Below, piece after piece: positions 3,646 to 21,041 of a DNA stretch of 64,000 nucleotides. The stretch spans positions 23,161 to 87,160 of the forward strand of contig JAEDGC010000001.1 of the NCBI GenBank assembly GCA_016297695.1, in the 5' to 3' direction. The stretch comes from Bacilli bacterium. Its GTDB lineage: Bacteria > Bacillota_I > Bacilli_A > RF39 > UBA660. Each line of letters opens with the position of its first letter. Position 1 is the stretch's first letter. The notes beneath the pieces were generated by a model. It was not told where the DNA came from. It was given only the letters and a program-made list of their open reading frames with translations, and did no database searches. Both the position numbers and the translations under genes were made by a program.

Positions 3646-4530
3646 ATGGCTGCTGAAAATAAATTTTTAGTACATTTAAATTTAAACGGAAATGAAATTA
3701 GAAATGTGATTCTACAAAATTTGAGTAGCGCACCAGAGGTAGAAACTGGTACGAATATAGGTAGAATGTACTATGATACAACAGAACTGACACCAAAAAT
3801 CTTTAATGGAACTGAATGGGTTTCTTTTGGTGGAAGTGAAGATACTAATACAACTTATTCTTTTAGTATTACTGAAAAAAATGCTGACGGTAATAAGGAA
3901 AAATATTTCCATTGGGAAGATTCTGATGGAAAAAGTGGAGATATTCTAATTGTAACAATAGATGGAACTGTATCTAGTACATCTACTAATCCAATACAAA
4001 ATAAAATTATAAAAGCTTATGTAGATACAACAGCAGAATCTACTTTAGCAAGTGCAAAAGAATATGCTGATGGATTAGTTACAAGAGCTATGAATTATAA
4101 AGGTACAATTAGTCGTAGTTCGGGCTTACCAACAGAAAATGTAAAAATTGGAGATACTTATAAGGTTGCGGAAGCTGGAACTTACGCTAGTCAAACAGCT
4201 AAAGTGGGTGACATATTTATAGCTTCTTCTGCTACTCCTACTTGGGATTATATTCCATCTGGTGATGAATCAAACGTGATTGTATATACAGCTACTAATC
4301 CAACTCTTACTGCTACATCTGGTGGGGTTTGTGAATGGTCTATTACTACAGTTGCCGCATCAAAAAATTCAATTCAATCTGTTGCGGTTTATGAAAATTC
4401 AACAAATGAACAAGTTTATCCTAATATTACTATATCAGGAACTTCAAATCCTACAATTAAGATAACCATTGGAGCATCTGTAGGTACTACTATTAATGCA
4501 AATACATATACTGCACGATACATTTATTAA
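3646..4530 (+). CDS. tail fibre protein
   Basis: 294 aa with an AAGGAGG RBS. The N-terminus (FLVHLNLNGNEIRNV...GRMYYDT...IFNGTEW) resembles phage fibre attachment domains. Confidence 0.6.
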   Translation: MAAENKFLVHLNLNGNEIRNVILQNLSSAPEVETGTNIGRMYYDTTELTPKIFNGTEWVSFGGSEDTNTTYSFSITEKNADGNKEKYFHWEDSDGKSGDILIVTIDGTVSSTSTNPIQNKIIKAYVDTTAESTLASAKEYADGLVTRAMNYKGTISRSSGLPTENVKIGDTYKVAEAGTYASQTAKVGDIFIASSATPTWDYIPSGDESNVIVYTATNPTLTATSGGVCEWSITTVAASKNSIQSVAVYENSTNEQVYPNITISGTSNPTIKITIGASVGTTINANTYTARYIY

Positions 4531-4545
4531 TAAGGAGGCATTAAA

Positions 4546-7500
4546 ATGAAATTATTAGCTCCTATTATAAATGATGAAGATGTTGTTAATAAAAAATATG
4601 TAGATACTACAGCAGATAAACTACAATCTCAAGTTGACAATATTCAGATAGGCGGTCGAAACTTATTATATTATAGCCGATTTGATAATAAATATGCTGA
4701 TTACTGGTACTATCCACCGAGCGTAACGTATTCGTTTGACAGTGGTTATACTACAATGACAAAGCCTGAAACCGCAGCAAGACAGTTTACAACGCAAGCG
4801 TCAAATAAAAACTTAAATTTGTTACCGGAAAACGGTTGTAGCTACACGCTTTCCTGCGAAGTTATGAAAGCGGAAGGGCTTAATGTCGGATATGGAACAA
4901 AGGTCACAGTAAGATATAACTACACGGACGGTACAGTAAAGGATTTTGACATTAATATTCCAAGTGATATTACAGAAGATGTATGGCATAAATGTAGCTA
5001 CGCATTTACATACTCTTCCGGCAAAACTATAAACTATACACAGTTTATAGTTGCACTTGGAGCAGAAGCCTGTGGAATCAAGATAAAGAATGTGAAGTTT
5101 GAAAAAGGCAATAAAGCCACTGATTGGACACCCGCACCTGAAGATGTTGACAATAATATTGCTGCGGCTATTGATGCAGTTGAAATTGGTGGACGAAATA
5201 TTGTAACTGGAACGGCAACAATGACTATTGGTACCGGTGGTCGTAGTGTAGGACATTGGAGAAAATCCGGAACAGGAACAATCGAAACCATAGACATTAC
5301 TGATACACCTTTGCCAGGTATTAATAAAGGTATAAAGATTACATCGTCAGAAGCAGGTTCACAAATAGGTATAGCACAAGATAAAACTCCATTGAATAGC
5401 AGTAGTATATATACGCTTTCTTGTTGGGTGCGTAGCAATGCAGTGTCAGGTCTTGAATGTAGATTACAACCTTTTTATTTATCGGCTTCTGATTATGGCG
5501 GAAATGGTGCTTTTAACATTACAAATCAATGGCAACATATAAGTTATACGACTATAAATAACCCAAAGAACACAACAGAGTATAGTGCATCATATATCTA
5601 TTTAATACCACAATCAGAAGGTGATATACTAGAAATATGCGGTATCAAATTAGAAGTCGGAAACAAAGCAACCGACTGGACTCCTGCCCCTGAAGACATT
5701 GACAATAATATTACGGATGCAACTAATGATTTTATAAAAGAATTATCTGTATCAAAAAGGACTATTACTTATACGAAGGGCGATGGCTCAACAGGTACTA
5801 TTACAACACAAGATACGATTACAACTGCCACTACAACTGGTTCAGGTAATGCAGTTACAGCAATTACTGCGAATGATAAAGGAGCATTAACAGTTACTAA
5901 AGGTGCTACCTTTTTAACAGCGCATCCTACTATTGCTACAAGTATGGATTCTACGTCTACTGCTTCTCCAAGTGCGGGAGATACATTTACAGCTATAGAC
6001 GCAGTAACAAAAGATAGTAATGGTCACGTAACTAAAGTAAATACCAAAACCATTACCTTACCTGCTAAACAAACTACAATATCTGGAAATGCAGGAAGTG
6101 CAACTAAACTTGCGACTGCGCGTACTATACAAATAAATTTAGAAAGTACTTCATCAGCTTCTTTTGACGGTACTGCTAATATAACACCAGGAGTTACTGG
6201 TACTCTTCCAATATCTAATGGAGGTACTGGTCAGACGACTGCTAAAGCTGCTGCAAACTCTTTTATAAATGCATTAGAAACAGGAAGTGATACTCCACAA
6301 GATACAGATTATTATGTATCTCAATATGCTGGGGGTGGAACAACTAATACTAGTTATGTTAGACGGACAATGAGCGCTTTATGGAATTATATTAAAAGTA
6401 AACTTGCTACTGTAGCAACCAGTGGTTCTTATAATGATTTGAGTAATAAACCAACTATACCTACTGTTGGAAATGGCACTATTACTATTAAACAAGCTGG
6501 TACTACAAAAGGAACATTTACAACAAATCAAGATGGTAATACAACTATTGAATTAACAGACAATAATACAGATACTAAAGTTACTCAAATAGTAACTACA
6601 AGTAATGCTAACTATCCTCTACTACTTGCTCCAAGCGGACAAACTACTACTACTACTACATCATCGTATTTTGGTACAGATCTAATATTTAATCCAAGCA
6701 CAAAAACACTTAAAACTAAACAGTTCGAAGGAAATCTTGCTGGTAGTGCAGTAAGACGATATGTATATGGAGAAGATAATAATGTTACTACTAACTACGG
6801 TTATTATAAAATAGCAAGTTTTACAATAGATTCCCCATATTACACAGCCGTATTAAAACTACGTATTTGGTCAGATAACTTTACTAATTTTGCAAGAACG
6901 CCTGCAGAAGTAACTATTGTTTTTAGGACTAATTCAACAACAGCAACAACTACTAACGCTTATACATACGTTGATGGAGAAATAATCGCACCTTTATTAA
7001 ATTCAATATATTTAAAATATCCTAATACTACAAACGCTGGTACTTGTGAACTTTATTTTTATAAAGATGCAACCTATCAAAAGATAGATGTAGATGTATT
7101 ATATGAAGGTATAAGAGGTAGCACTCCTTCAACATATCAATATCAGTCAGTTTGGACGTTTTCAGATAACAAAGTAATTTCTAATGATATTGCGGAAGAT
7201 GGATATGCAGTTGCAACATTAAACGCTTTAAAACAACATCAAGCCATAAAAGCATCAACGTTTACTGGTATTCATAATTATGAAGGTAATAATGGAGCTT
7301 GGGGATTAAATATCATAAGAACTGATTTTACAAAAGGCGATATTCCAACTTATAATACATATTGGGCATTGAATTTTATGGATAAAAATAGTGGAAATTC
7401 TCACGCTAATAGAATAGGATATTTAGATAGTTATATTGATACAAGCGGAAATTCTTATATAGAACTATGCGCTATGAATAATGTATTAAATGACACGACA

Positions 7501-8613: not shown

Positions 8614-9294
8614 ATGTTAATTTTTAAAGATAATACTTGGCAAATTAACGGGTCGTATCCTGATTTTGATTATACAAGATATGAAAGAGTTTATAATGAT
8701 AAACTGTCTGATTATGAAATAAAAGAAAAAGAAGATTATATCGAAAATGTTAATCCTGTAGTTTATGTAATATCTGACGATTCTCCTTTAACGTCTAAAG
8801 TTATGCAGTATGCTCCTAATATGAAGGTCATCACCGACGAGAAAGGAATCGTTATTGATGTTATAGAGGATTATTCTCTTGAAGATGTAATTAAATTAAA
8901 AATTGCAGAAGTTAATAATTCTTGTAATAATACAATTTATAATGGTATTGATTATAATGGAGAACATTTTGATTTAACTGAAGAAGATCAAATAAATATA
9001 ATGTCTAATCAAAAAACAGCCGAATTAGGCATTCCAGTTCCTTATCATTCTTCTAGTGCAGATAAAACTCTTCCTTGTAAGATTTATACTCCAGAAGAAT
9101 TTATAGGTTTAGCAAGGGCGGCAGCAGAATTTAAAGTATATCAATTAAGTTATTGTAATTTATTGAAGTGTCAAATATGGGAAATGACAGATAAAGAAGA
9201 AATAAAAGCTATTAAATATGGTGATTCTTTAAATGACAAGTATCAAAATATGTTAAATCAACTATTAGGTGGTCAAAATGAAACAAATTTTTAA
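8614..9294 (+). CDS. fibre-associated protein (DUF4376-like C-terminal half, from memory)
   Basis: 226 aa with a GGAGG RBS. C-terminal ...NGIDYNGEHFDLTEEDQINI...IYTPEEFIGL... resembles DUF4376 proteins found next to phage fibres. Confidence 0.4.
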   Translation: MLIFKDNTWQINGSYPDFDYTRYERVYNDKLSDYEIKEKEDYIENVNPVVYVISDDSPLTSKVMQYAPNMKVITDEKGIVIDVIEDYSLEDVIKLKIAEVNNSCNNTIYNGIDYNGEHFDLTEEDQINIMSNQKTAELGIPVPYHSSSADKTLPCKIYTPEEFIGLARAAAEFKVYQLSYCNLLKCQIWEMTDKEEIKAIKYGDSLNDKYQNMLNQLLGGQNETNF

Positions 9295-9694
9295 ACAGAT
9301 TTTTTTATATATAATAGGTGGATTGATCTATTTATTAATAGAAATTTTATTTAGGGGACATACTCATTGGACAATGTTTATTATTGGCGGATTGTGCTTT
9401 ACTTTGATAGGCTTGCTGAATGAGTGTCCCAATCTCCGCCTATCTTTAATTTATCAAGGTATTTTAGGCTCAGTTATTATTACTACTATTGAACTTATTT
9501 CTGGAATAATAATAAATATTATTTTAAAGTGGAACGTTTGGGATTATAGTAATCAGCCATTAAATTTATTAGGACAAATATGTTTGCCATTTAGTTTAGC
9601 ATGGATCTTTTTAGCTATCATCGCAGTTTTTGTAGATGATATATTAAGATATATAATATTTAAGGAAGAGATTCCAAAATATAAAATTTTATAA
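9278..9694 (+). CDS. multi-pass membrane protein of the lysis cassette (holin-like)
   Basis: About 4 predicted TM helices. ATG at 9278 follows AGGTGG (the ORF track starts at GTG 9269). Lies immediately upstream of the holin and endolysin. Confidence 0.5.
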   Translation: MKQIFKQIFLYIIGGLIYLLIEILFRGHTHWTMFIIGGLCFTLIGLLNECPNLRLSLIYQGILGSVIITTIELISGIIINIILKWNVWDYSNQPLNLLGQICLPFSLAWIFLAIIAVFVDDILRYIIFKEEIPKYKIL

Positions 9695-17703: not shown

Positions 17704-17740
17704 GTATATATATTATAACAAAAATTTTTTAAAATTTCAA
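17704..17740 (-). promoter_or_regulatory. class-2 promoter, copy 3
   Basis: TTGAAA-TTTTAAAAAATTTTTGT-TATAAT upstream of tRNA-Met. Confidence 0.6.
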
Positions 17741-18177
17741 AAGTAACAAATGTAATCAACATCTTCGTCATAACTTGGAGTTTCAAAATTTTTATACATT
17801 CTTTCAATAACTGACTCAGGAACGACTCTTTGTCTATTTGAATTTCTTTCAAGAGCAGTATCAATTGGAGTTTTACAATAGCAAATTACATTATTACAAT
17901 TGTATTCTCTACCAATATCAGTAATAATTTTTCTATCTTTTTTTCGGATATTGGTAGCATCAAAAATAACATTCTCACCAAGAGATAAATAATTTCTTAT
18001 TCTTGAATAAGCAAGAGAAAAAACTTCTTTGCCATTGCCTTGAATGTTTTCATCTCCGTATAATTCTTCTCTAATGGAATCAGTTGAAACAATGTTACCA
18101 TTGAAAAATTTTGCAATTGTAGATTTACCACTTGCGGGGATGCCGCACATTATGATTAAATTCATTCTATGCTCCAC
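17737..18177 (-). CDS. polynucleotide 5'-kinase-like P-loop protein (T4 Pnk kinase-domain-like)
   Basis: Walker A GIPASGKST, then STDSIRE (D-x-x-R spacing as in T4 Pnk D35/R38), FDATNIR, and RNSNRQRVVPESVIERMYKNF (compare T4 [22 protein letters not shown]). No phosphatase domain. The real start may be ATG 18165. Confidence 0.65.
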   Translation of the reverse strand: MEHRMNLIIMCGIPASGKSTIAKFFNGNIVSTDSIREELYGDENIQGNGKEVFSLAYSRIRNYLSLGENVIFDATNIRKKDRKIITDIGREYNCNNVICYCKTPIDTALERNSNRQRVVPESVIERMYKNFETPSYDEDVDYICYF

Positions 18178-18416: not shown

Positions 18417-18455
18417 TTCTATAAATATTATAACAAAAATTTTTTAAAATTTCAA
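18417..18455 (-). promoter_or_regulatory. class-2 promoter, copy 4
   Basis: TTGAAATTTTAAAAAATTTTTGTTATAATATTTATAGAA upstream of 18395. Confidence 0.6.
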
Positions 18456-18460
18456 TAAAC

Positions 18461-18498
18461 AAAAAAAGGGGAAGAGCAGAAAACTAAGTTCTGCTCTT
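18461..18498 (-). terminator. terminator closing the upstream tRNA transcription unit
   Basis: Stem AAGAGCAGAA/TTCTGCTCTT followed by CCCCTTTTTTT on the minus strand. Confidence 0.7.
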
Positions 18499-18522
18499 TA
18501 AGAAAAGGAATGTTGTTACAAG

Positions 18523-18611
18523 TGGCGGCGGACAAAGGTGTCGATCCCTATAGGAGTAAACCTACGCATTGTTTTCAAGACAAGCCTAATTGCCGAATTA
18601 GTTTATCCGCC
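18523..18611 (-). tRNA. tRNA-Ser (UGA), type II, atypical T-loop
   Basis: GGCGGAT...loop CTTGAAA...variable arm TAGG/CCTA...ATCGACA T-loop...GTCCGCC-G-CCA. The anticodon stem and T-arm are weak. Confidence 0.5.
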
Positions 18612-19004
18612 GTATATAAAACTGGACTGTCTTTTGATTATTTACTTCGACTTGCGAGCAGTCCAGAGTAGTAAATAACCTCTTGTTAGTCATCTGCTAC
18701 GAAGCAGCTCGGCGGCAGTATATATCATTTCAACTTACCGCAGGCTGCAAGCCTTTTTCTAACAAAAATATTAAGAAGAAGCCTTCAGCCATAGGAGCAG
18801 CTTCCATGCATCCTTACTAACGAGATGTGTAAGGACATTAGATTATGATTCTTTTAAAATTAATGGTTGTCCTATCCTTGAGAAGTTGCTGTTATGCTCG
18901 CTTGATAGATGACTATTTAAGCTACACTGTTACACCATTCAATAAAATTTAAAAATCGACTCTAATGTTTACTACCCGCCTATATTCACAGCTCTTAATA
19001 TTGT
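18612..19004 (-). ncRNA. 393-nt structured RNA with group-I-intron-like P, Q, R, S strings and no ORF
   Basis: Minus-strand order: CCTGCGGTAAGTTGAAAT (18744-18727), ACTGCCGCCGAGC (18719-18707), GCAGATGACTAACAAGAGG (18697-18679), AAAAGACAGTCCAG (18635-18622). GCGG/CCGC and GACT/AGTC can pair as P4 and P7. No exons identified. Confidence 0.4.
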
Positions 19005-19363: not shown

Positions 19364-19463
19364 TCAACAGGCATGGATTTGCACCATACATAACAACATC
19401 GTTTGTCTTGTTCTGTATATAAATAACACTCATACTAGCGTCTACCTATTCCGCCACTGTTGA
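19364..19463 (-). pseudogene. aberrant Leu-type tRNA-like gene (100 nt)
   Basis: TCAACAG-TG-GCGGAATAGGTAGACGC (Leu-type D-arm) ... TATGG-TGCAAAT-CCATG-(C)-CTGTTGA. No anticodon arm could be folded. No CCA. Confidence 0.3.
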
Positions 19464-19490
19464 TTATTATTCTATTTCTAATATTTCTTT

Positions 19491-19616
19491 TGGTGCGGAG
19501 AATGGGATTCGAACCCACACTGAATGGATTTTTGGTGCGAAATATTGGGGTTGAACCAATTTAATGATACCGATCATTTCGCAAGTCCATTGCCTCTGCC
19601 GTTGGGCTATCTCCAC
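19491..19616 (-). tRNA. tRNA (anticodon UAA after insert removal) interrupted after U34 by a 50-nt minihelix
   Basis: GTGGAGA-TA-GCCC-AACGGCAG-AGGC-A-ATGGA-CTT[insert]AAAA-TCCAT-TCAGT-GTGGG-TTCGAAT-CCCAT-TCTCCGC-A-CCA. Confidence 0.65.
19533..19582 (-). ncRNA. nested acceptor/T-arm minihelix with CCA
   Basis: GCGAAAT-(GATCGGTATC-ATTAA)-ATTGG-TTCAACC-CCAAT-ATTTCGC-A-CCA. Perfect 7-bp acceptor and 5-bp T-stem. Confidence 0.6.
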
Positions 19617-19650
19617 ATATTATAAAAGCTAAGATTATTATACTTAGCTT

Positions 19651-19728
19651 TGGTGACGGAAACAGGATTTGAACTTGTAAAAACCTGCTCACTAAGACAG
19701 GCGTGTATGCCAATTCCACCATTCCGCC
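19651..19728 (-). tRNA. tRNA with an 8-nt anticodon loop (CUUAGUGA; UAG-type)
   Basis: GGCGGAA-TG-GTG..CAC-G-CCTGT-CTTAGTGA-GCAGG-TTTTT-ACAAG-TTCAAAT-CCTGT-TTCCGTC-A-CCA. One extra U relative to a canonical CUUAGGA loop. Class-I variable loop. Confidence 0.5.
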
Positions 19729-19735
19729 ATATATT

Positions 19736-19810
19736 ATTTGAGTTTTAACCTGTTAAACTATCAACCACCTCCATGAGGCAGTTGAGTGAGATTCGAACTC
19801 ACATTCAAAT
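19736..19810 (-). ncRNA. circularly permuted tRNA mimic (closed acceptor, open anticodon stem)
   Basis: ATTTG-AAT-GTGAG-TTCGAAT-CTCAC-TCAACTG-[CCTC-ATG-GAGG cap]-TGGTTGA-TA-GTTT-AACAGGTTA-AAAC-T-CAAAT. All tRNA helices are present, in the order 3' half, cap, 5' half. Confidence 0.55.
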
Positions 19811-20047
19811 AATATTTTTTTCGTATGGCAATGTATTAAACCTCTGCAGTGTACTTCTACAGCGTGCAACTCATACACCAACCCCATTTTCGGCTATATC
19901 CATACTTGTCCAGACAAACAACTTATAAGGAGTTGCCAACCTTCAACTTTCGTATGAGCACGGGTGAGTATCCGGACTATCACCTTTATTTTGTGCTATT
20001 AGTTATAATCCAGACTACACCACGAGGAGGTTGCACTATCGTAGTCC
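19811..20047 (-). ncRNA. about 240-nt structured RNA 5' of the permuted tRNA mimic
   Basis: R-like TCAGAGGACTACGA and S-like AAAGGTGATAGTCCGG (GGACTA/TAGTCC can pair). Long-range helix CGTGCTCATAC/GTATGAG..GCACG. GAAA loops. A CCTTATAAG...TATGG receptor-like motif. Confidence 0.4.
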
Positions 20048-20784
20048 TCTGAGTGAAGAGAATCGAACTCTTGTTTCCGGATCCAGTAAAAAATACTCTT
20101 ATAAAACAGGGAACTCCTTATATTTCCAATAATAATTATAAGCCATTTTATTTTTTGCTATGCTCTCCTTAATATATCTTATTTGTCTATCGTCAAACTT
20201 TTGTTTTAACTCTTCTGTTGTCCATAATTTTTCTTCCTCTAAATCAGAATAAGAAATAAATCTGTTATCAGAGTACTTTTTTATAGGAGTTTGAGTTATT
20301 ATTGATTGAATCACATTATCTATTAAATAATCTGAAGCGATAGACATTGTAGATTGTATTCCTTTTTTAGGTGATTTAATCCGTAAATACTTTTCAGTTG
20401 AAACTTCACCAATAGGAATTAAAAATCCGTATTCTTTCCAAGAAGTATAAAAATAATCAACTTCTTTTTCTGAATAAGTATATTTTGTTGTTTTTTGAGT
20501 ATTAGTTGTACTTCTCGTAGCAGACATTTTTAATACACCTTCATCTTCTGAATAAGAAGATGCTTTACACTGTATTTTATATAATTTATCATTAATATCA
20601 ACGATTAAATCATATCGACAAGAACCGCTAAATGGAATACTACAATAATACCCTCTTTTTTGAAAATCTAAGATACATTGGAGTTCATTTACATCGCCAC
20701 GAATTAAAGTGCTATCCATAGCAAACTGTTTTATATTAAAGTTTTTCTACCAAATCCGGGGGCTTACCTCTAACCGACACCCAG
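20048..20784 (-). tRNA. tRNA-Pro (UGG) interrupted in the anticodon loop by a 666-nt ORF-bearing insert
   Basis: 5' half CTGGGTG-TC-GGTT-AGAGGTA-AGCC-C-CCGGA-TTTGG. 3' half GA-TCCGG-AAAC-AAGAG-TTCGATT-CTCTT-CACTCAG-A. C1-G72/A73 as in bacterial tRNA-Pro. No CCA. Confidence 0.65.
20099..20719 (-). CDS. PD-(D/E)XK homing endonuclease (I-Ssp6803I-like, from memory)
   Basis: 206 aa. GDVNELQ...RYDLIVD...YKIQCK gives the E/D...QxK catalytic pattern of the intron-encoded PD-(D/E)XK family. Fills almost the whole insert in tRNA-Pro. Confidence 0.55.
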   Translation of the reverse strand: MDSTLIRGDVNELQCILDFQKRGYYCSIPFSGSCRYDLIVDINDKLYKIQCKASSYSEDEGVLKMSATRSTTNTQKTTKYTYSEKEVDYFYTSWKEYGFLIPIGEVSTEKYLRIKSPKKGIQSTMSIASDYLIDNVIQSIITQTPIKKYSDNRFISYSDLEEEKLWTTEELKQKFDDRQIRYIKESIAKNKMAYNYYWKYKEFPVL

Positions 20785-20818: not shown

Positions 20819-20854
20819 TGTATATATTATAACAAAAATTTTTTAAAATTTCAA
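20819..20854 (-). promoter_or_regulatory. class-2 promoter, copy 5
   Basis: TTGAAATTTTAAAAAATTTTTGTTATAATATATACA upstream of the split tRNA-Pro. Confidence 0.6.
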
Positions 20855-21002: not shown

Positions 21003-21041
21003 TTCTATAAATATTATAACAAAAATTTTTTAAAATTTCAA
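21003..21041 (-). promoter_or_regulatory. class-2 promoter, copy 6
   Basis: Identical box TTGAAATTTTAAAAAATTTTTGTTATAATATTTATAGAA. Confidence 0.6.

What the first reader, a model, noticed from the sequence alone, without database searches (positions are those of the whole stretch)
19736..19810. Circularly permuted tRNA mimic: 3' half, capping hairpin, 5' half
The minus strand reads ATTTG-AAT-GTGAG-TTCGAAT-CTCAC-TCAACTG-[CCTC-ATG-GAGG]-TGGTTGA-TA-GTTT-AACAGGTTA-AAAC-T-CAAAT. Every tRNA helix is present: T-arm, 7-bp acceptor (two wobble pairs), D-arm, and a perfect 5-bp anticodon stem CAAAT/ATTTG. However, the acceptor end is closed by a hairpin cap and the molecule opens at the anticodon stem. 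That stem is extended by flanking AAATATT/AATATAT pairing. The element therefore cannot be aminoacylated and looks like a tRNA-shaped domain grafted onto the 240-nt structured RNA just upstream. As far as I recall, a permuted tRNA-like module of this kind is the signature of bacterial YrlA-type Y RNAs that bind Ro60 orthologues, and a Ro60-like gene lies 5 kb away at 13369..14823.
Basis: partly seen in the sequence, partly recalled or inferred. Interest (0 to 1): 0.78.

Follow-up and report, generated by a model that had tools for sequence, protein, structure and literature searches.

The report
Permuted tRNA mimic near phage Ro60
A phage tRNA operon encodes a conserved RNA shaped like a tRNA whose acceptor end is sealed and whose anticodon end is open, the kind of module known from bacterial Y RNAs (YrlA), and the phage also encodes a divergent Ro60-like protein, but here the mimic is fused to a new, almost invariant 174-nt RNA domain instead of the usual Ro-binding stem.

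Summary
Window 19736-19810 (minus strand) is a complete, circularly permuted tRNA cloverleaf: T arm, closed acceptor-like hairpin, D arm and closing stem. It folds far better than shuffles (z = -5.3). It is kept in three sister phages with compensatory changes, and ARAGORN calls it a tRNA once it is un-permuted.

The "Ro60-like" gene claim also holds. ORF 13369-14823 matches only DUF2828/DUF7788 in Pfam, but its AlphaFold model matches Ro60/TROVE structures over its full length (E about 1e-9).

The same module occurs on the same strand near homologous genes in at least 18 of 80 further phage loci (24 counting hits of 27-29 bits) and in mycobacteriophage LeBron. There Rfam's YrlA model aligns end to end, though below its cut-off. 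In those phages the module sits inside a stem followed by a CAGCRA motif.

The window lineage differs. Its stem+CAGCAA hairpins lie next to the Ro60-like gene, while the mimic is fused to an almost invariant 174-nt domain, which I call S, 4.9 kb away in a tRNA operon.

Verdict: a new variant of the YrlA kind. Binding to the Ro60-like protein is inferred, not shown.

The parts
19736..19810 (-). Circularly permuted tRNA-like module (TLS). Closing stem 5' strand 19806-19810; variable AAU 19803-19805; T arm 19786-19802; acceptor-like hairpin (7 bp + 4-bp cap + AUG loop) 19761-19785; U8 A9 19759-19760; D arm 19742-19758; closing stem 3' strand 19736-19740.
   Evidence: Sequence; fold z = -5.3; covariation in 4 lineage copies and 23 family members; tRNA tertiary signature; called a tRNA after un-permutation.
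19811..19984 (-). S domain: a 174-nt structured RNA fused 5' of the TLS. The first ~120 nt are almost invariant (3 differences window vs L013). The 3' hairpin CUGUAG-AAGUACA-CUGCAG covaries. Contains CAUACGAAAG and a small AAGG-UU(G/A)GCAACU-CCUU hairpin.
   Evidence: Present in the window, L013, L022 and L023 only (nhmmer E <= 1e-55, nothing in ~110 other loci). Consensus fold. No Rfam match at E <= 10.
19729..19735 (-). 3' tail AAUAUAU between the TLS and the first base of tRNA-Leu(UAG). It pairs with AAAUAUU 5' of the TLS in the window.
   Evidence: The extension is only partly conserved.
19985..20047 (-). Context, not part of the unit: a minimal HDV-like (theta-type) ribozyme. Its G1 follows discriminator A20048 of tRNA-Pro. 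It replaces the CCAAUU found in sister phages.
   Evidence: Weak RF02682/RF01787 hits (21.5 and 19.4 bits). Absent in L013, L022 and L023. A second copy with covarying P1 and P2 lies at 15029-15083. Context as in PMC10879173.
20048..20784 (-). Context: tRNA-Pro(UGG) split in the anticodon loop. 5' exon 20750-20784, 3' exon 20048-20083, 666-nt insert 20084-20749 carrying PD-(D/E)XK ORF 20099-20719.
   Evidence: Intact gene in sister loci.
19651..19728 (-). Context: tRNA-Leu(UAG) immediately 3' of the unit. RNase P cleavage at its 5' end would define the 3' end of S-TLS.
20826..20854 (-). Promoter-like site TTGAAA-17-TATAAT (11 of 12, TG-extended) that would start the tRNA-Pro / S-TLS / tRNA array transcript. 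A terminator-like hairpin at 18472-18498 would end it.
   Evidence: consensus match only.
13369..14823 (-). Ro60-like protein (Pfam DUF2828 + DUF7788): helical TROVE-like ring plus vWA domain with MIDAS DxSxS (D300, S302, S304).
   Evidence: Pfam. AlphaFold2 pLDDT 90.6, pTM 0.89. The top 13 Foldseek PDB hits are all Ro60/TROVE, E 1.3e-9 to 2.5e-5, TM up to 0.62 over ~507-557 columns. Homologues are annotated 'Ro-like RNA binding protein' in mycobacteriophages.
14892..14945 (-). Stem+CAGCAA hairpin RNA (AAGAUAGCUU-CAGCAA...AGGCUAUCUU), the presumptive Ro60-like-binding small RNA (YrlB-like).
   Evidence: Family statistics.
14957..14996 (-). Second stem+CAGCAA hairpin RNA (AAGGCAAU-UU-CAGCAA...AUUGCCUU).
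   Evidence: Orthologues in L013, L022 and L023.

Best explanation
The element is the tRNA-mimic effector module of a phage Y-RNA-like system. It is a tRNA cloverleaf rewired so that the acceptor stem is closed by a hairpin and the strands enter and leave through the anticodon stem. This keeps the T-loop/D-loop elbow but has no anticodon and no free CCA end.

It is transcribed from the strong promoter at 20854-20826 as part of a tRNA operon (inferred). It would be released as an S-TLS RNA of about 250 nt by the enzymes that process the flanking tRNA-Pro and tRNA-Leu (inferred).

It belongs to a family of such modules that accompany DUF2828/DUF7788 proteins. Those proteins are divergent Ro60 homologues (TROVE ring + vWA) found in many tRNA-rich phages, often beside RNA-repair genes (shown by comparison). 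By analogy with YrlA, the elbow would be recognised by tRNA-binding enzymes such as TruB, Dus, RNase P or repair enzymes. It would couple them, or the RNA itself, to the Ro60-like ribonucleoprotein during tRNA surveillance or repair in infection (inferred).

In the window lineage the usual enclosing stem+CAGCRA part has been replaced by the invariant S domain. S may supply the protein-binding or a new effector function (speculative).
For: Structure.

Protein.

Association: model R2, built from the window lineage, finds closed-hairpin permuted modules on the gene's strand. At least 18 of 80 IMG/VR loci with a DUF2828 homologue have a hit of 30 bits or more, and 24 of 80 counting hits of 27-29 bits. 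It also finds them in L114 and 145 nt downstream of LeBron gp53, annotated 'Ro-like RNA binding protein'. Tandem-tRNA junctions in tRNA-rich control loci reach at most 27.6 bits.

Link to YrlA: RF02553 aligns positions 1-114 with the LeBron RNA (39.8 bits, E 2.6e-7), and gives 36.2 bits on L072 and 28.4 bits on L055.

Companion RNAs: stem+CAGCRA RNAs number 274 on the gene's strand, 73 on the opposite strand and 40 in shuffles. 74 of 80 loci have one and 52 of 80 have one within 600 nt of the gene. Sizes are bimodal, 40-80 and 110-140 nt. All modules outside the window lineage that I inspected are enclosed by such a stem.

Repair context: RNA ligases, AAA_33+HD kinase/phosphatase, Thg1, Metallophos and RtcB lie next to homologous genes. 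An AAA_33/KTI12 kinase is in the window at 17737-18177.

Transcription unit.

Literature: Chen et al. 2014 (PMC4201824); Thermus phage phiLo Ro60 with Y-like RNAs (PMC12135203); TROVE as an RNA-repair platform with a tRNA-like partner in jumbo phages (PMC7824862).
Against: The window element is not enclosed by a stem+CAGCRA and has no GNCGAAN0-1G. RF02553 gives no hit on it or on its sister L022 at E <= 10. It lies 4.9 kb from the Ro60-like gene in a different predicted transcription unit, while the hairpins that look like Ro partners sit beside the gene.

The link to the Ro60-like protein therefore rests on homology of architecture and on co-occurrence in other lineages. Because every member is tRNA-derived, similarity detected by the covariance model shows shared architecture, not necessarily common descent. 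No expression, processing or binding data exist. The 80 loci include near-duplicates, so counts are not independent events.
Confidence: 0.6

Rival explanations
1. A stand-alone tRNA mimic that works without the Ro60-like protein. It could be a 3' handle that stabilises or processes the S RNA, as tRNA-like ends do for MALAT1/mascRNA or plant viral RNAs. It could also be a decoy or sponge for host tRNA-binding factors such as modification enzymes, RNase P or tRNA-directed defence nucleases. In this reading S is the functional part and the TLS only supplies tRNA-like recognition.
For: The TLS is physically fused to S and not to a stem+CAGCRA. S is about five times more conserved than the flanking tRNAs: 3 differences in ~120 nt, against ~9 of 72 in tRNA-Pro and ~20 of 75 in the TLS, window vs L013. 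The unit lies in a tRNA operon separate from the Ro60-like gene. The S-TLS arrangement is confined to one lineage.
Against: Every module found outside this lineage lies inside a stem+CAGCRA RNA close to a Ro60-like gene. The most economical history is therefore a YrlA-like module that changed partners. A decoy for anticodon nucleases would need an anticodon loop, which is absent. Nothing known matches S.
Confidence: 0.27
2. A circularly permuted tRNA gene, as in Cyanidioschyzon or Thermofilum. The transcript ends would be joined across the anticodon loop, and the cap removed by RNase P and 3' processing, to give a chargeable tRNA.
For: All cloverleaf helices are present, and the un-permuted sequence is accepted by ARAGORN. 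The window copy has a 7-bp acceptor stem. The phage carries other interrupted tRNA genes and a polynucleotide-kinase-like gene.
Against: In L023 the cap is deleted, pair 2:71 is U.U, and the hairpin is 5 bp with a 6-nt loop. Across the family the hairpin is 5-10 bp with tetraloops and no conserved discriminator or CCA. No 7-nt anticodon loop with U33 can be assembled from the flanks. In other lineages the closing stem continues into linkers and an enclosing stem, not a loop. There is no G3.U70 and no bulge-helix-bulge motif.
Confidence: 0.04
3. A chance junction or fossil: the 3' half of one tRNA pseudogene next to the 5' half of another, the dimeric-tRNA false positive that Chen et al. warn about, with no function.
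For: The phage has split and interrupted tRNA genes. Tandem tRNA junctions score up to 27.6 bits with the model.
Against: The two 'halves' are complementary over 7 bp and continue into a cap hairpin. Five pairs of that hairpin, one of the T stem and one of the closing stem changed on both sides among four phages. The element is kept at one position in four genomes while neighbouring features vary. The fold z-score is -5.3.
Confidence: 0.03

Closest known systems
YrlA (Y RNA-like A; Rfam RF02553; Chen et al. 2014, PMC4201824), partner of bacterial and phage Ro60/Rsr
   Same: A tRNA-like domain in the order T arm, closed acceptor-like stem-loop, D arm, entered through the position of the anticodon stem. 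It has U8, A14, G18G19, a T-loop consensus and a covarying 15:48 Levitt pair. It is encoded on the same strand as a Ro60-type protein and occurs in phages. Acceptor-like stem length varies (7 bp in M. smegmatis, shorter in Salmonella).
   Different: No GNCGAAN0-1G motif. No terminal stem made of the 5' and 3' ends. About 250 nt with S instead of 80-130 nt. 4.9 kb from the gene rather than within 4 kb, and in another transcription unit. No RF02553 hit at E <= 10. The partner protein is DUF2828/DUF7788-type, not a Pfam TROVE match.
Stem+CAGCRA small RNAs next to DUF2828-type Ro-like genes
   Same: The same permuted tRNA-like module (30-41 bits with the window-lineage model), the same protein family nearby, the same strand, and often embedded in tRNA arrays.
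   Different: In those RNAs the module is enclosed by a 7-10-bp stem followed by CAGCRA. In the window lineage that stem+motif exists only as separate 40-54-nt hairpins beside the gene, and the module is fused to S.
Thermus phage phiLo Ro60 with Yrl1/Yrl2 (PMC12135203; PDB 9KOP, 9L5Y)
   Same: A phage-encoded Ro60 homologue with phage-encoded Y-like RNAs near the gene. phiLo Ro60 is among the best structural matches of the window protein (E 1.3e-9 and 9.3e-9).
   Different: The phiLo Yrls are described as 5'-3' stems around a bulge with a CGAA motif. No tRNA-like module or S-like domain is reported in the passages read.
Circularly permuted tRNA genes (Cyanidioschyzon merolae, Thermofilum) and two-piece (permuted) tmRNA
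   Same: Gene order is 3' half, intervening segment, 5' half of a tRNA fold.
   Different: Those mature to free, chargeable acceptor ends. Here the acceptor-like hairpin is not conserved as a 7-bp stem plus discriminator, there is no anticodon loop, no G3.U70 and no tag reading frame, and ARAGORN calls no tmRNA in the window.
Theta (minimal HDV-like) ribozymes at phage tRNA 3' ends (Kienbeck et al. 2024, PMC10879173). Relevant only to 19985-20047.
   Same: The cleavage site is exactly one base after the tRNA discriminator. The tRNA lacks an encoded CCA. Minimal P4. Probably a gut phage of Bacillota.
   Different: Scores below the Rfam HDV-family cut-offs (21.5 vs 44). I did not compare it with the published theta descriptor.

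Membership tests
YrlA (RF02553 / Chen et al. 2014) | tRNA-like domain with T arm, closed acceptor-like stem-loop and D arm in that order, closed by a stem at the anticodon-stem position | tested here: met
YrlA (RF02553 / Chen et al. 2014) | Conserved tRNA tertiary-interaction nucleotides, including a covarying 15:48 Levitt pair | tested here: met
   U8, A14, GG and a UUCRANY T loop are invariant in 23 members. 15:48 is A:U in 17 and G:C in 2, with no mismatch.
YrlA (RF02553 / Chen et al. 2014) | GNCGAAN0-1G motif near the 5' end (presumed Ro60 contact) | tested here: not met
   No match within 110 nt either side of the TLS in the window or L013. The nearest is UACGAAAG in S, with one mismatch.
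YrlA (RF02553 / Chen et al. 2014) | Encoded within about 4 kb of, and on the same strand as, a Ro60 orthologue | tested here: inconclusive
   Same strand, but 4,913 nt away (19736 to 14823) and separated by a predicted terminator and promoter. The protein is Ro60-like by fold only.
YrlA (RF02553 / Chen et al. 2014) | 80-130-nt RNA whose 5' and 3' ends form the long stem | tested here: not met
   The 5' side is the 174-nt S domain, and the 3' side is 7 nt before the next tRNA.
YrlA (RF02553 / Chen et al. 2014) | Score at or above the Rfam gathering threshold (69 bits) | tested here: not met
   No RF02553 hit at E <= 10 on window 19400-20400 or on the TLS of L022. Relatives score 39.8 (LeBron), 36.2 (L072) and 28.4 (L055), all below threshold.
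YrlA (RF02553 / Chen et al. 2014) | Bound by Ro60; pseudouridine and dihydrouridine installed by TruB and DusA | not testable with these tools
   Needs immunoprecipitation and modification mapping.
Ro60 / TROVE protein family (for ORF 13369-14823) | Ring of HEAT-like helical repeats followed by a vWA domain with a MIDAS motif | tested here: met
   AlphaFold2 pLDDT 90.6. The top 13 PDB matches are all Ro60/TROVE over ~507-557 columns, TM 0.40-0.62. DxSxS is invariant.
Ro60 / TROVE protein family (for ORF 13369-14823) | Sequence match to Pfam TROVE (PF05731) or to Ro60 chains | tested here: not met
   Pfam gives DUF2828 + DUF7788 only. phmmer and a profile search against PDB sequences find only vWA domains.
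Stem+CAGCRA RNAs of DUF2828-type loci (defined here) | 7-10-bp stem, 0-3 nt, then CAGCRA, with the 3' strand closing the RNA | tested here: not met
   Not present around the TLS. Met by 14892-14945 and 14957-14996.
Circularly permuted tRNA genes | Conserved 7-bp acceptor stem with discriminator, and an anticodon loop that can be reconstituted from the termini | tested here: not met
   L023 has a 5-bp hairpin with a U.U at 2:71. No U33-containing 7-nt loop can be assembled from the flanks.
Permuted (two-piece) tmRNA | tRNA-Ala-like acceptor with G3.U70, CCA end, tag reading frame | tested here: not met
   ARAGORN finds no tmRNA. Pair 3:70 is G-C. No RF04321 hit in the window scan.
HDV-like / theta ribozymes (for 19985-20047 only) | Nested double-pseudoknot core with a G.U at the cleavage site, a C in J4/2, and the cleavage site within 1 nt of a tRNA 3' end | tested here: inconclusive
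   The position is exact (G20047 after A20048). P1, P2, P3 and P1.1 can be drawn by hand, and a second copy at 15029-15083 has covarying P1 and P2. Rfam scores are 21.5 and 19.4, below the cut-offs of 44 and 37. No cleavage assay.

The most novel reading that the evidence does not exclude
DUF2828/DUF7788 proteins define a second, so far undescribed Ro60/Y-RNA system. It is spread over hundreds of cultured and uncultured phages (Listeria Pecentumvirus, Staphylococcus 6ec, FelixO1-like, mycobacteriophage cluster L, gut Bacillota phages). Its RNAs are recognised by a stem+CAGCRA signature instead of GNCGAA and come in short (YrlB-like) and tRNA-mimic (YrlA-like) forms inside tRNA arrays. In the window lineage the tRNA mimic has been moved from the Ro-binding stem onto a new, almost invariant 174-nt RNA domain (S). 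S would then be a new functional RNA, either a protein-binding platform or a ribozyme, that uses a tRNA-shaped handle.
Probability: 0.35. Interest if true: 0.8.

Novelty: new variant of a known kind. Interest (0 to 1): 0.62.

Why it matters
Ro60/Y-RNA particles are conserved from bacteria to humans, yet what the tRNA-like module does is still open.

This locus and its relatives show that a large protein family filed only as DUFs is Ro60-like. It travels with permuted tRNA mimics and with a distinct stem+CAGCRA RNA signature, and it sits in phage tRNA arrays beside RNA ligases, kinase/phosphatases, Thg1 and RtcB. That ties the system to tRNA repair or counter-defence during infection. It also offers tractable models in cultured Listeria, Staphylococcus, Escherichia/Salmonella and Mycobacterium phages.

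The window lineage is a natural domain swap: the tRNA mimic is separated from the presumed Ro-binding stem and fused to a new invariant domain. That makes it possible to test which part of a Y RNA does what.

Tried and rejected
- blastn of the 1-kb region against INPHARED phages found no match.
- Exact-pattern scans of IMG/VR for the ribozyme core, the acceptor/cap segment and the S core all found nothing.
- A degenerate T-loop...D-arm pattern returned 8 loci that were all ordinary tandem tRNAs. These served later as a control set.
- S-core anchor scans of JGI metagenomes and GTDB genomes found nothing.
- MAFFT misaligned the two first copies. I replaced it with an Infernal alignment to a hand-given structure.
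- Group I intron for the ORF-bearing insert in tRNA-Pro: no Rfam hit at E <= 10, and no room for a ribozyme core.
- My first thought that GGACUAC.../AAGGUGAUAGUCC were group I R/S elements was dropped once the sister loci showed the ribozyme segment to be an insertion.
- tmRNA and permuted tmRNA were rejected.
- Sequence searches of the protein against PDB found only vWA. Only the fold search revealed Ro60.
- GNCGAAN0-1G is absent next to the modules.
- nhmmer finds S nowhere outside four loci.
- Homologues of the upstream 178-aa gene lie in unrelated contexts and gave no further copies.
- The closest outgroup contigs either end before the array (L014, L113) or carry the canonical stem-enclosed form (L114).
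- No RNA ligase was found among 24 window ORFs scanned with Pfam.
- The Chen et al. supplementary tables are not held, so I could not check whether LeBron-type RNAs were in their list.
Full report
**1. The observation**

ARAGORN and Rfam ordinary tRNAs on this strand between 15083 and 19728, but nothing at 19736-19810.

Folded alone, 19729-19820 gives the closing stem, the T hairpin and an 11-bp acceptor/cap hairpin at -27.7 kcal/mol. Shuffles average -12.6 +/- 2.8, so z = -5.3. When the two halves are swapped back and a neutral anticodon loop is supplied, ARAGORN accepts the sequence as a tRNA. In native order it does not. The element is therefore a complete circular permutation of a cloverleaf.

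**2. Conservation and covariation**

The protein of ORF 13369-14823 led to a sister phage contig, L013 (protein 76% identical), and to two closer ones, L022 and L023. All three have the same order: promoter, tRNA-Pro(UGG), a ~170-nt RNA, the permuted element, tRNA-Leu(UAG).

A covariance model built from the window copy scores them at 50.5, 72.3 and 58.5 bits. On the resulting alignment:
- 97.9% of cells pair, against 34-52% with slid partners.
- Seven pairs changed on both sides. Examples: closing stem AUUUG/CAAAU becomes AUCUG/CAGAU; T stem GUGAG/CUCAC becomes GCGAG/CUCGU.
- The cap varies in shape: CCUC-AUG-GAGG in the window, UCC-GAGA-GGA in L013, UUU-UGUG-GAA in L022.

A sealed hairpin of variable length, together with the lack of any U33-type loop at the open end, rules out maturation into a chargeable tRNA.

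**3. What lies upstream**

The first part is 20047-19985, an HDV-like ribozyme:
- It contains the core ACCUCCUCGUGGU, and P1 (GGACUAC/GUAGUCU) opens with a G.U pair.
- It gets weak hits to RF02682 and RF01787.
- It begins one base after discriminator A20048 of tRNA-Pro.
- It is absent from all three sisters, which have CCAAUU at that place.
- A second copy follows tRNA-Gln at 15083-15029, with P1 and P2 changed in a compensatory way and the same J4/2 CUAAUA.
- This matches the published context of theta ribozymes (PMC10879173).

The second part is 19984-19811, which I call S. It is conserved in all four phages and found nowhere else among ~110 fetched loci, IMG/VR, JGI metagenomes or GTDB genomes. 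Its first ~120 nt differ at 3 positions between the window and L013. Over the same comparison tRNA-Pro differs at ~9 of 72 positions and the permuted element at ~20 of 75. Only its 3' hairpin covaries, so its fold remains unproven. No Rfam family matches it.

**4. The protein**

Pfam assigns ORF 13369-14823 to DUF2828 + DUF7788, not TROVE. Sequence searches against PDB find only vWA domains. An AlphaFold2 model built on 36 homologues is confident (pLDDT 90.6, pTM 0.89).

Its 13 best Foldseek matches in PDB are all Ro60/TROVE structures: Xenopus and human Ro60, D. radiodurans Rsr, and Thermus phage phiLo Ro60. They score E 1.3e-9 to 2.5e-5 and TM up to 0.62 over ~507-557 columns. After them come only isolated vWA domains. 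The MIDAS DxSxS motif is invariant.

tblastn finds homologues in 708 phage records. Those in mycobacteriophage cluster L are annotated "Ro-like RNA binding protein".

**5. The module and this protein family**

A model built from the four lineage copies (R2) was run on 80 IMG/VR loci that encode homologues (33-49% identity, with 8 kb of flank on each side).

- It found hits of 30 bits or more in at least 18 loci, and in 24 loci counting hits of 27-29 bits. All are on the gene's strand.
- In every hit aligned, the T arm is followed directly by a self-complementary closed hairpin (5-10 bp, loops such as UUCG or GAGA), then UA and a D arm. These cannot be tandem tRNAs.
- Control: junctions of ordinary tandem tRNAs in tRNA-rich loci reach at most 27.6 bits.
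- On the 23-row alignment 95% of cells pair, against 34-48% slid. 164 cells changed on both sides, against 52 in shuffles. This alignment was fitted to the model.
- The tRNA tertiary signature is intact and the Levitt pair covaries.

The model also finds a module 145 nt downstream of LeBron gp53 (31.7 bits) and one in L114 (31.4 bits).

Rfam's YrlA model aligns positions 1-114 with the LeBron RNA (39.8 bits, E 2.6e-7, cut-off 69). It gives 36.2 and 28.4 bits on two gut-phage members, but nothing on the window lineage. The link of the window element to YrlA is therefore transitive, and it is a link of architecture.

**6. A second signature, and where the window differs**

Outside the window lineage every module I inspected is enclosed by a stem followed by CAGCRA. 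Examples are L055 AAGACACAU-ACAGCAA...AUGUGUCUU and LeBron GGACUCU-AG-CAGCAA...GGAGUCC. Rare variants have CUGCAA or UCGCAA.

A descriptor scan of the 80 loci gives these counts:
- 274 such RNAs on the gene's strand, 73 on the other strand, and 40 in shuffled sequence.
- 74 of 80 loci have at least one, and 52 of 80 have one within 600 nt of the gene.
- Sizes are bimodal, 40-80 nt and 110-140 nt.

Listeria phage LP-124 has three directly upstream of its gene, Staphylococcus phage 6ec has three directly downstream, and LeBron has three. None of these RNAs reaches any Rfam gathering score.

The window lineage also has them, but as short hairpins beside the gene: 14957-14996 and 14892-14945, between the second ribozyme and the start codon. 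The tRNA mimic is not enclosed by one. In this lineage, then, the presumptive protein-binding part and the tRNA mimic are on different RNAs, and the mimic is fused to S.

**7. Context and likely mechanism**

Three near-identical TTGAAA-17-TATAAT promoters lie on the minus strand. The one at 20854-20826 precedes tRNA-Pro, and a terminator-like hairpin at 18498-18472 closes the array. This is a consensus match only.

S-TLS would thus be cut out of a polycistronic tRNA precursor by the enzymes that trim its neighbours (inferred). In this phage it would carry the 63-nt ribozyme on its 5' end.

Homologous Ro60-like genes sit among RNA ligases (PF09414, PF09511), AAA_33+HD kinase/phosphatases, Thg1, Metallophos and, in LP-124, an RtcB-like ligase. 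The window has an AAA_33/KTI12 kinase at 17737-18177. I found no ligase among the ORFs scanned.

This mirrors the cellular rsr-yrlBA-rtcBA arrangement, and the view of TROVE proteins as an RNA-repair platform with a tRNA-like partner (PMC7824862, PMC7790460). I therefore read the element as the tRNA-mimic effector of a phage Ro60-like system involved in tRNA surveillance or repair. The step "S-TLS is bound by, or works with, the Ro60-like protein" is inferred (confidence 0.6).

The main rival is a tRNA-shaped handle serving S independently of that protein (0.27).

**8. Comparison with the known, and novelty**

Permuted tRNA-like modules next to Ro60 genes, including in phages, have been known since 2014. 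The window element meets the architectural and tertiary-signature criteria of YrlA. It fails the motif, terminal-stem, size and Rfam-score criteria, and is borderline on distance. I file it as a new variant of that kind, not as a member of RF02553.

What I did not find in Rfam 15 or in the held literature:
- the Ro60-like nature of DUF2828/DUF7788 as a basis for a Y-RNA system;
- the stem+CAGCRA signature;
- the S fusion.

I could not consult the supplementary tables of Chen et al., so part of this may already be known.

**9. Limits**

- Only four copies of S-TLS exist in the data, and three of them are close relatives.
- The 80 loci contain near-duplicates.
- The control set for the module is small.
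- The covariance-model alignments lean towards the model.
- Promoter, terminator and ribozyme assignments are pattern-based.
- There is no experimental evidence for expression, processing or binding.

Noticed in passing
window 20048-20784 (-); also L001 ~3930-4680 and L002 ~3930-4680: tRNA-Pro(UGG) is interrupted after UUUGG of the anticodon loop by a 666-nt insert that is almost entirely a PD-(D/E)XK (PF11645, I-Ssp6803I-type) endonuclease ORF. The same site and the same mutually pairing insert ends (UAGAAAAACUUUAAUAUAA... / ...GAGUAUUUUUUACUG) occur in two unrelated viral contigs. Sister phages have the intact gene. There is no room for a group I core and no Rfam intron hit, so it is unclear how the tRNA is restored, or whether it is.
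   Followed up: partly
window 19985-20047 (-) and 15029-15083 (-): Two minimal HDV-like (theta-type) ribozymes, each starting one base after a tRNA discriminator (tRNA-Pro A20048, tRNA-Gln G15084). Both have the core ACCUCCUCGUGGU (2 exact copies, 0.19 expected), covarying P1 and P2, and J4/2 CUAAUA. Sister phages have an encoded CCA at the tRNA-Pro site and no room for a ribozyme after tRNA-Gln. Both copies are below Rfam cut-offs.
   Followed up: partly
window 14892-14945 (-), 14957-14996 (-); L015-L108 many: A widespread class of small RNAs made of a 7-10-bp stem plus CAGCRA, next to DUF2828-type Ro60-like genes. In 80 loci there are 274 on the gene's strand, 73 on the opposite strand and 40 in shuffles. 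It is also present in Listeria LP-124, Staphylococcus 6ec and Mycobacterium LeBron. No Rfam family covers it.
   Followed up: yes
window 19651-19728 (-): tRNA-Leu(UAG) has an 8-nt anticodon loop, CUUAGUGA (ARAGORN reports a 4-base anticodon). The orthologues in L013, L022 and L023 have the normal CUUAGAA.
   Followed up: no
window 19494-19616 (-): tRNA-Leu(UAA) carries a ~49-nt insert between U34 and A35, the classical insertion site of the tRNA-Leu group I intron. The insert is far too short to be a group I ribozyme. The orthologue in L013 (5600-5675) is uninterrupted. L002 4683-4803 shows a similar short insert in a tRNA-Leu-like gene.
   Followed up: no
window 18499-19004 (-); L013 5930-6330; L015 ~9200-9640: A 400-600-nt gene-free stretch after tRNA-Ser, just before the terminator. 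It shares blocks between lineages (e.g. GGAAGCUGCUCCUAUGGCUGAAGGCU). It may be a further large structured RNA. No Rfam match.
   Followed up: no
L015 8863-8945 and 6325-6410: A skipping-rope RNA (RF02924, 62 bits) lies about 1 kb upstream of the Ro60-like gene, and a c-di-GMP-I riboswitch (RF01051, 70.5 bits) precedes a dockerin-domain gene, both in a related phage contig.
   Followed up: no
L015-L021, L107 (Listeria phage LP-124): Ro60-like genes are embedded in RNA-repair neighbourhoods: RNA ligases PF09414 and PF09511, AAA_33+HD kinase/phosphatase, Thg1, Metallophos, and an RtcB-like ligase, together with NAD-salvage genes and tRNA arrays.
   Followed up: partly
window 21013-21041, 20826-20854, 18427-18455 (-): Three near-identical ~45-nt promoter cassettes (ATTGAAATTTTAAAAAATTTTTGTTATAATAT) head successive short transcription units. 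The same cassette is present in the sister phages.
   Followed up: no
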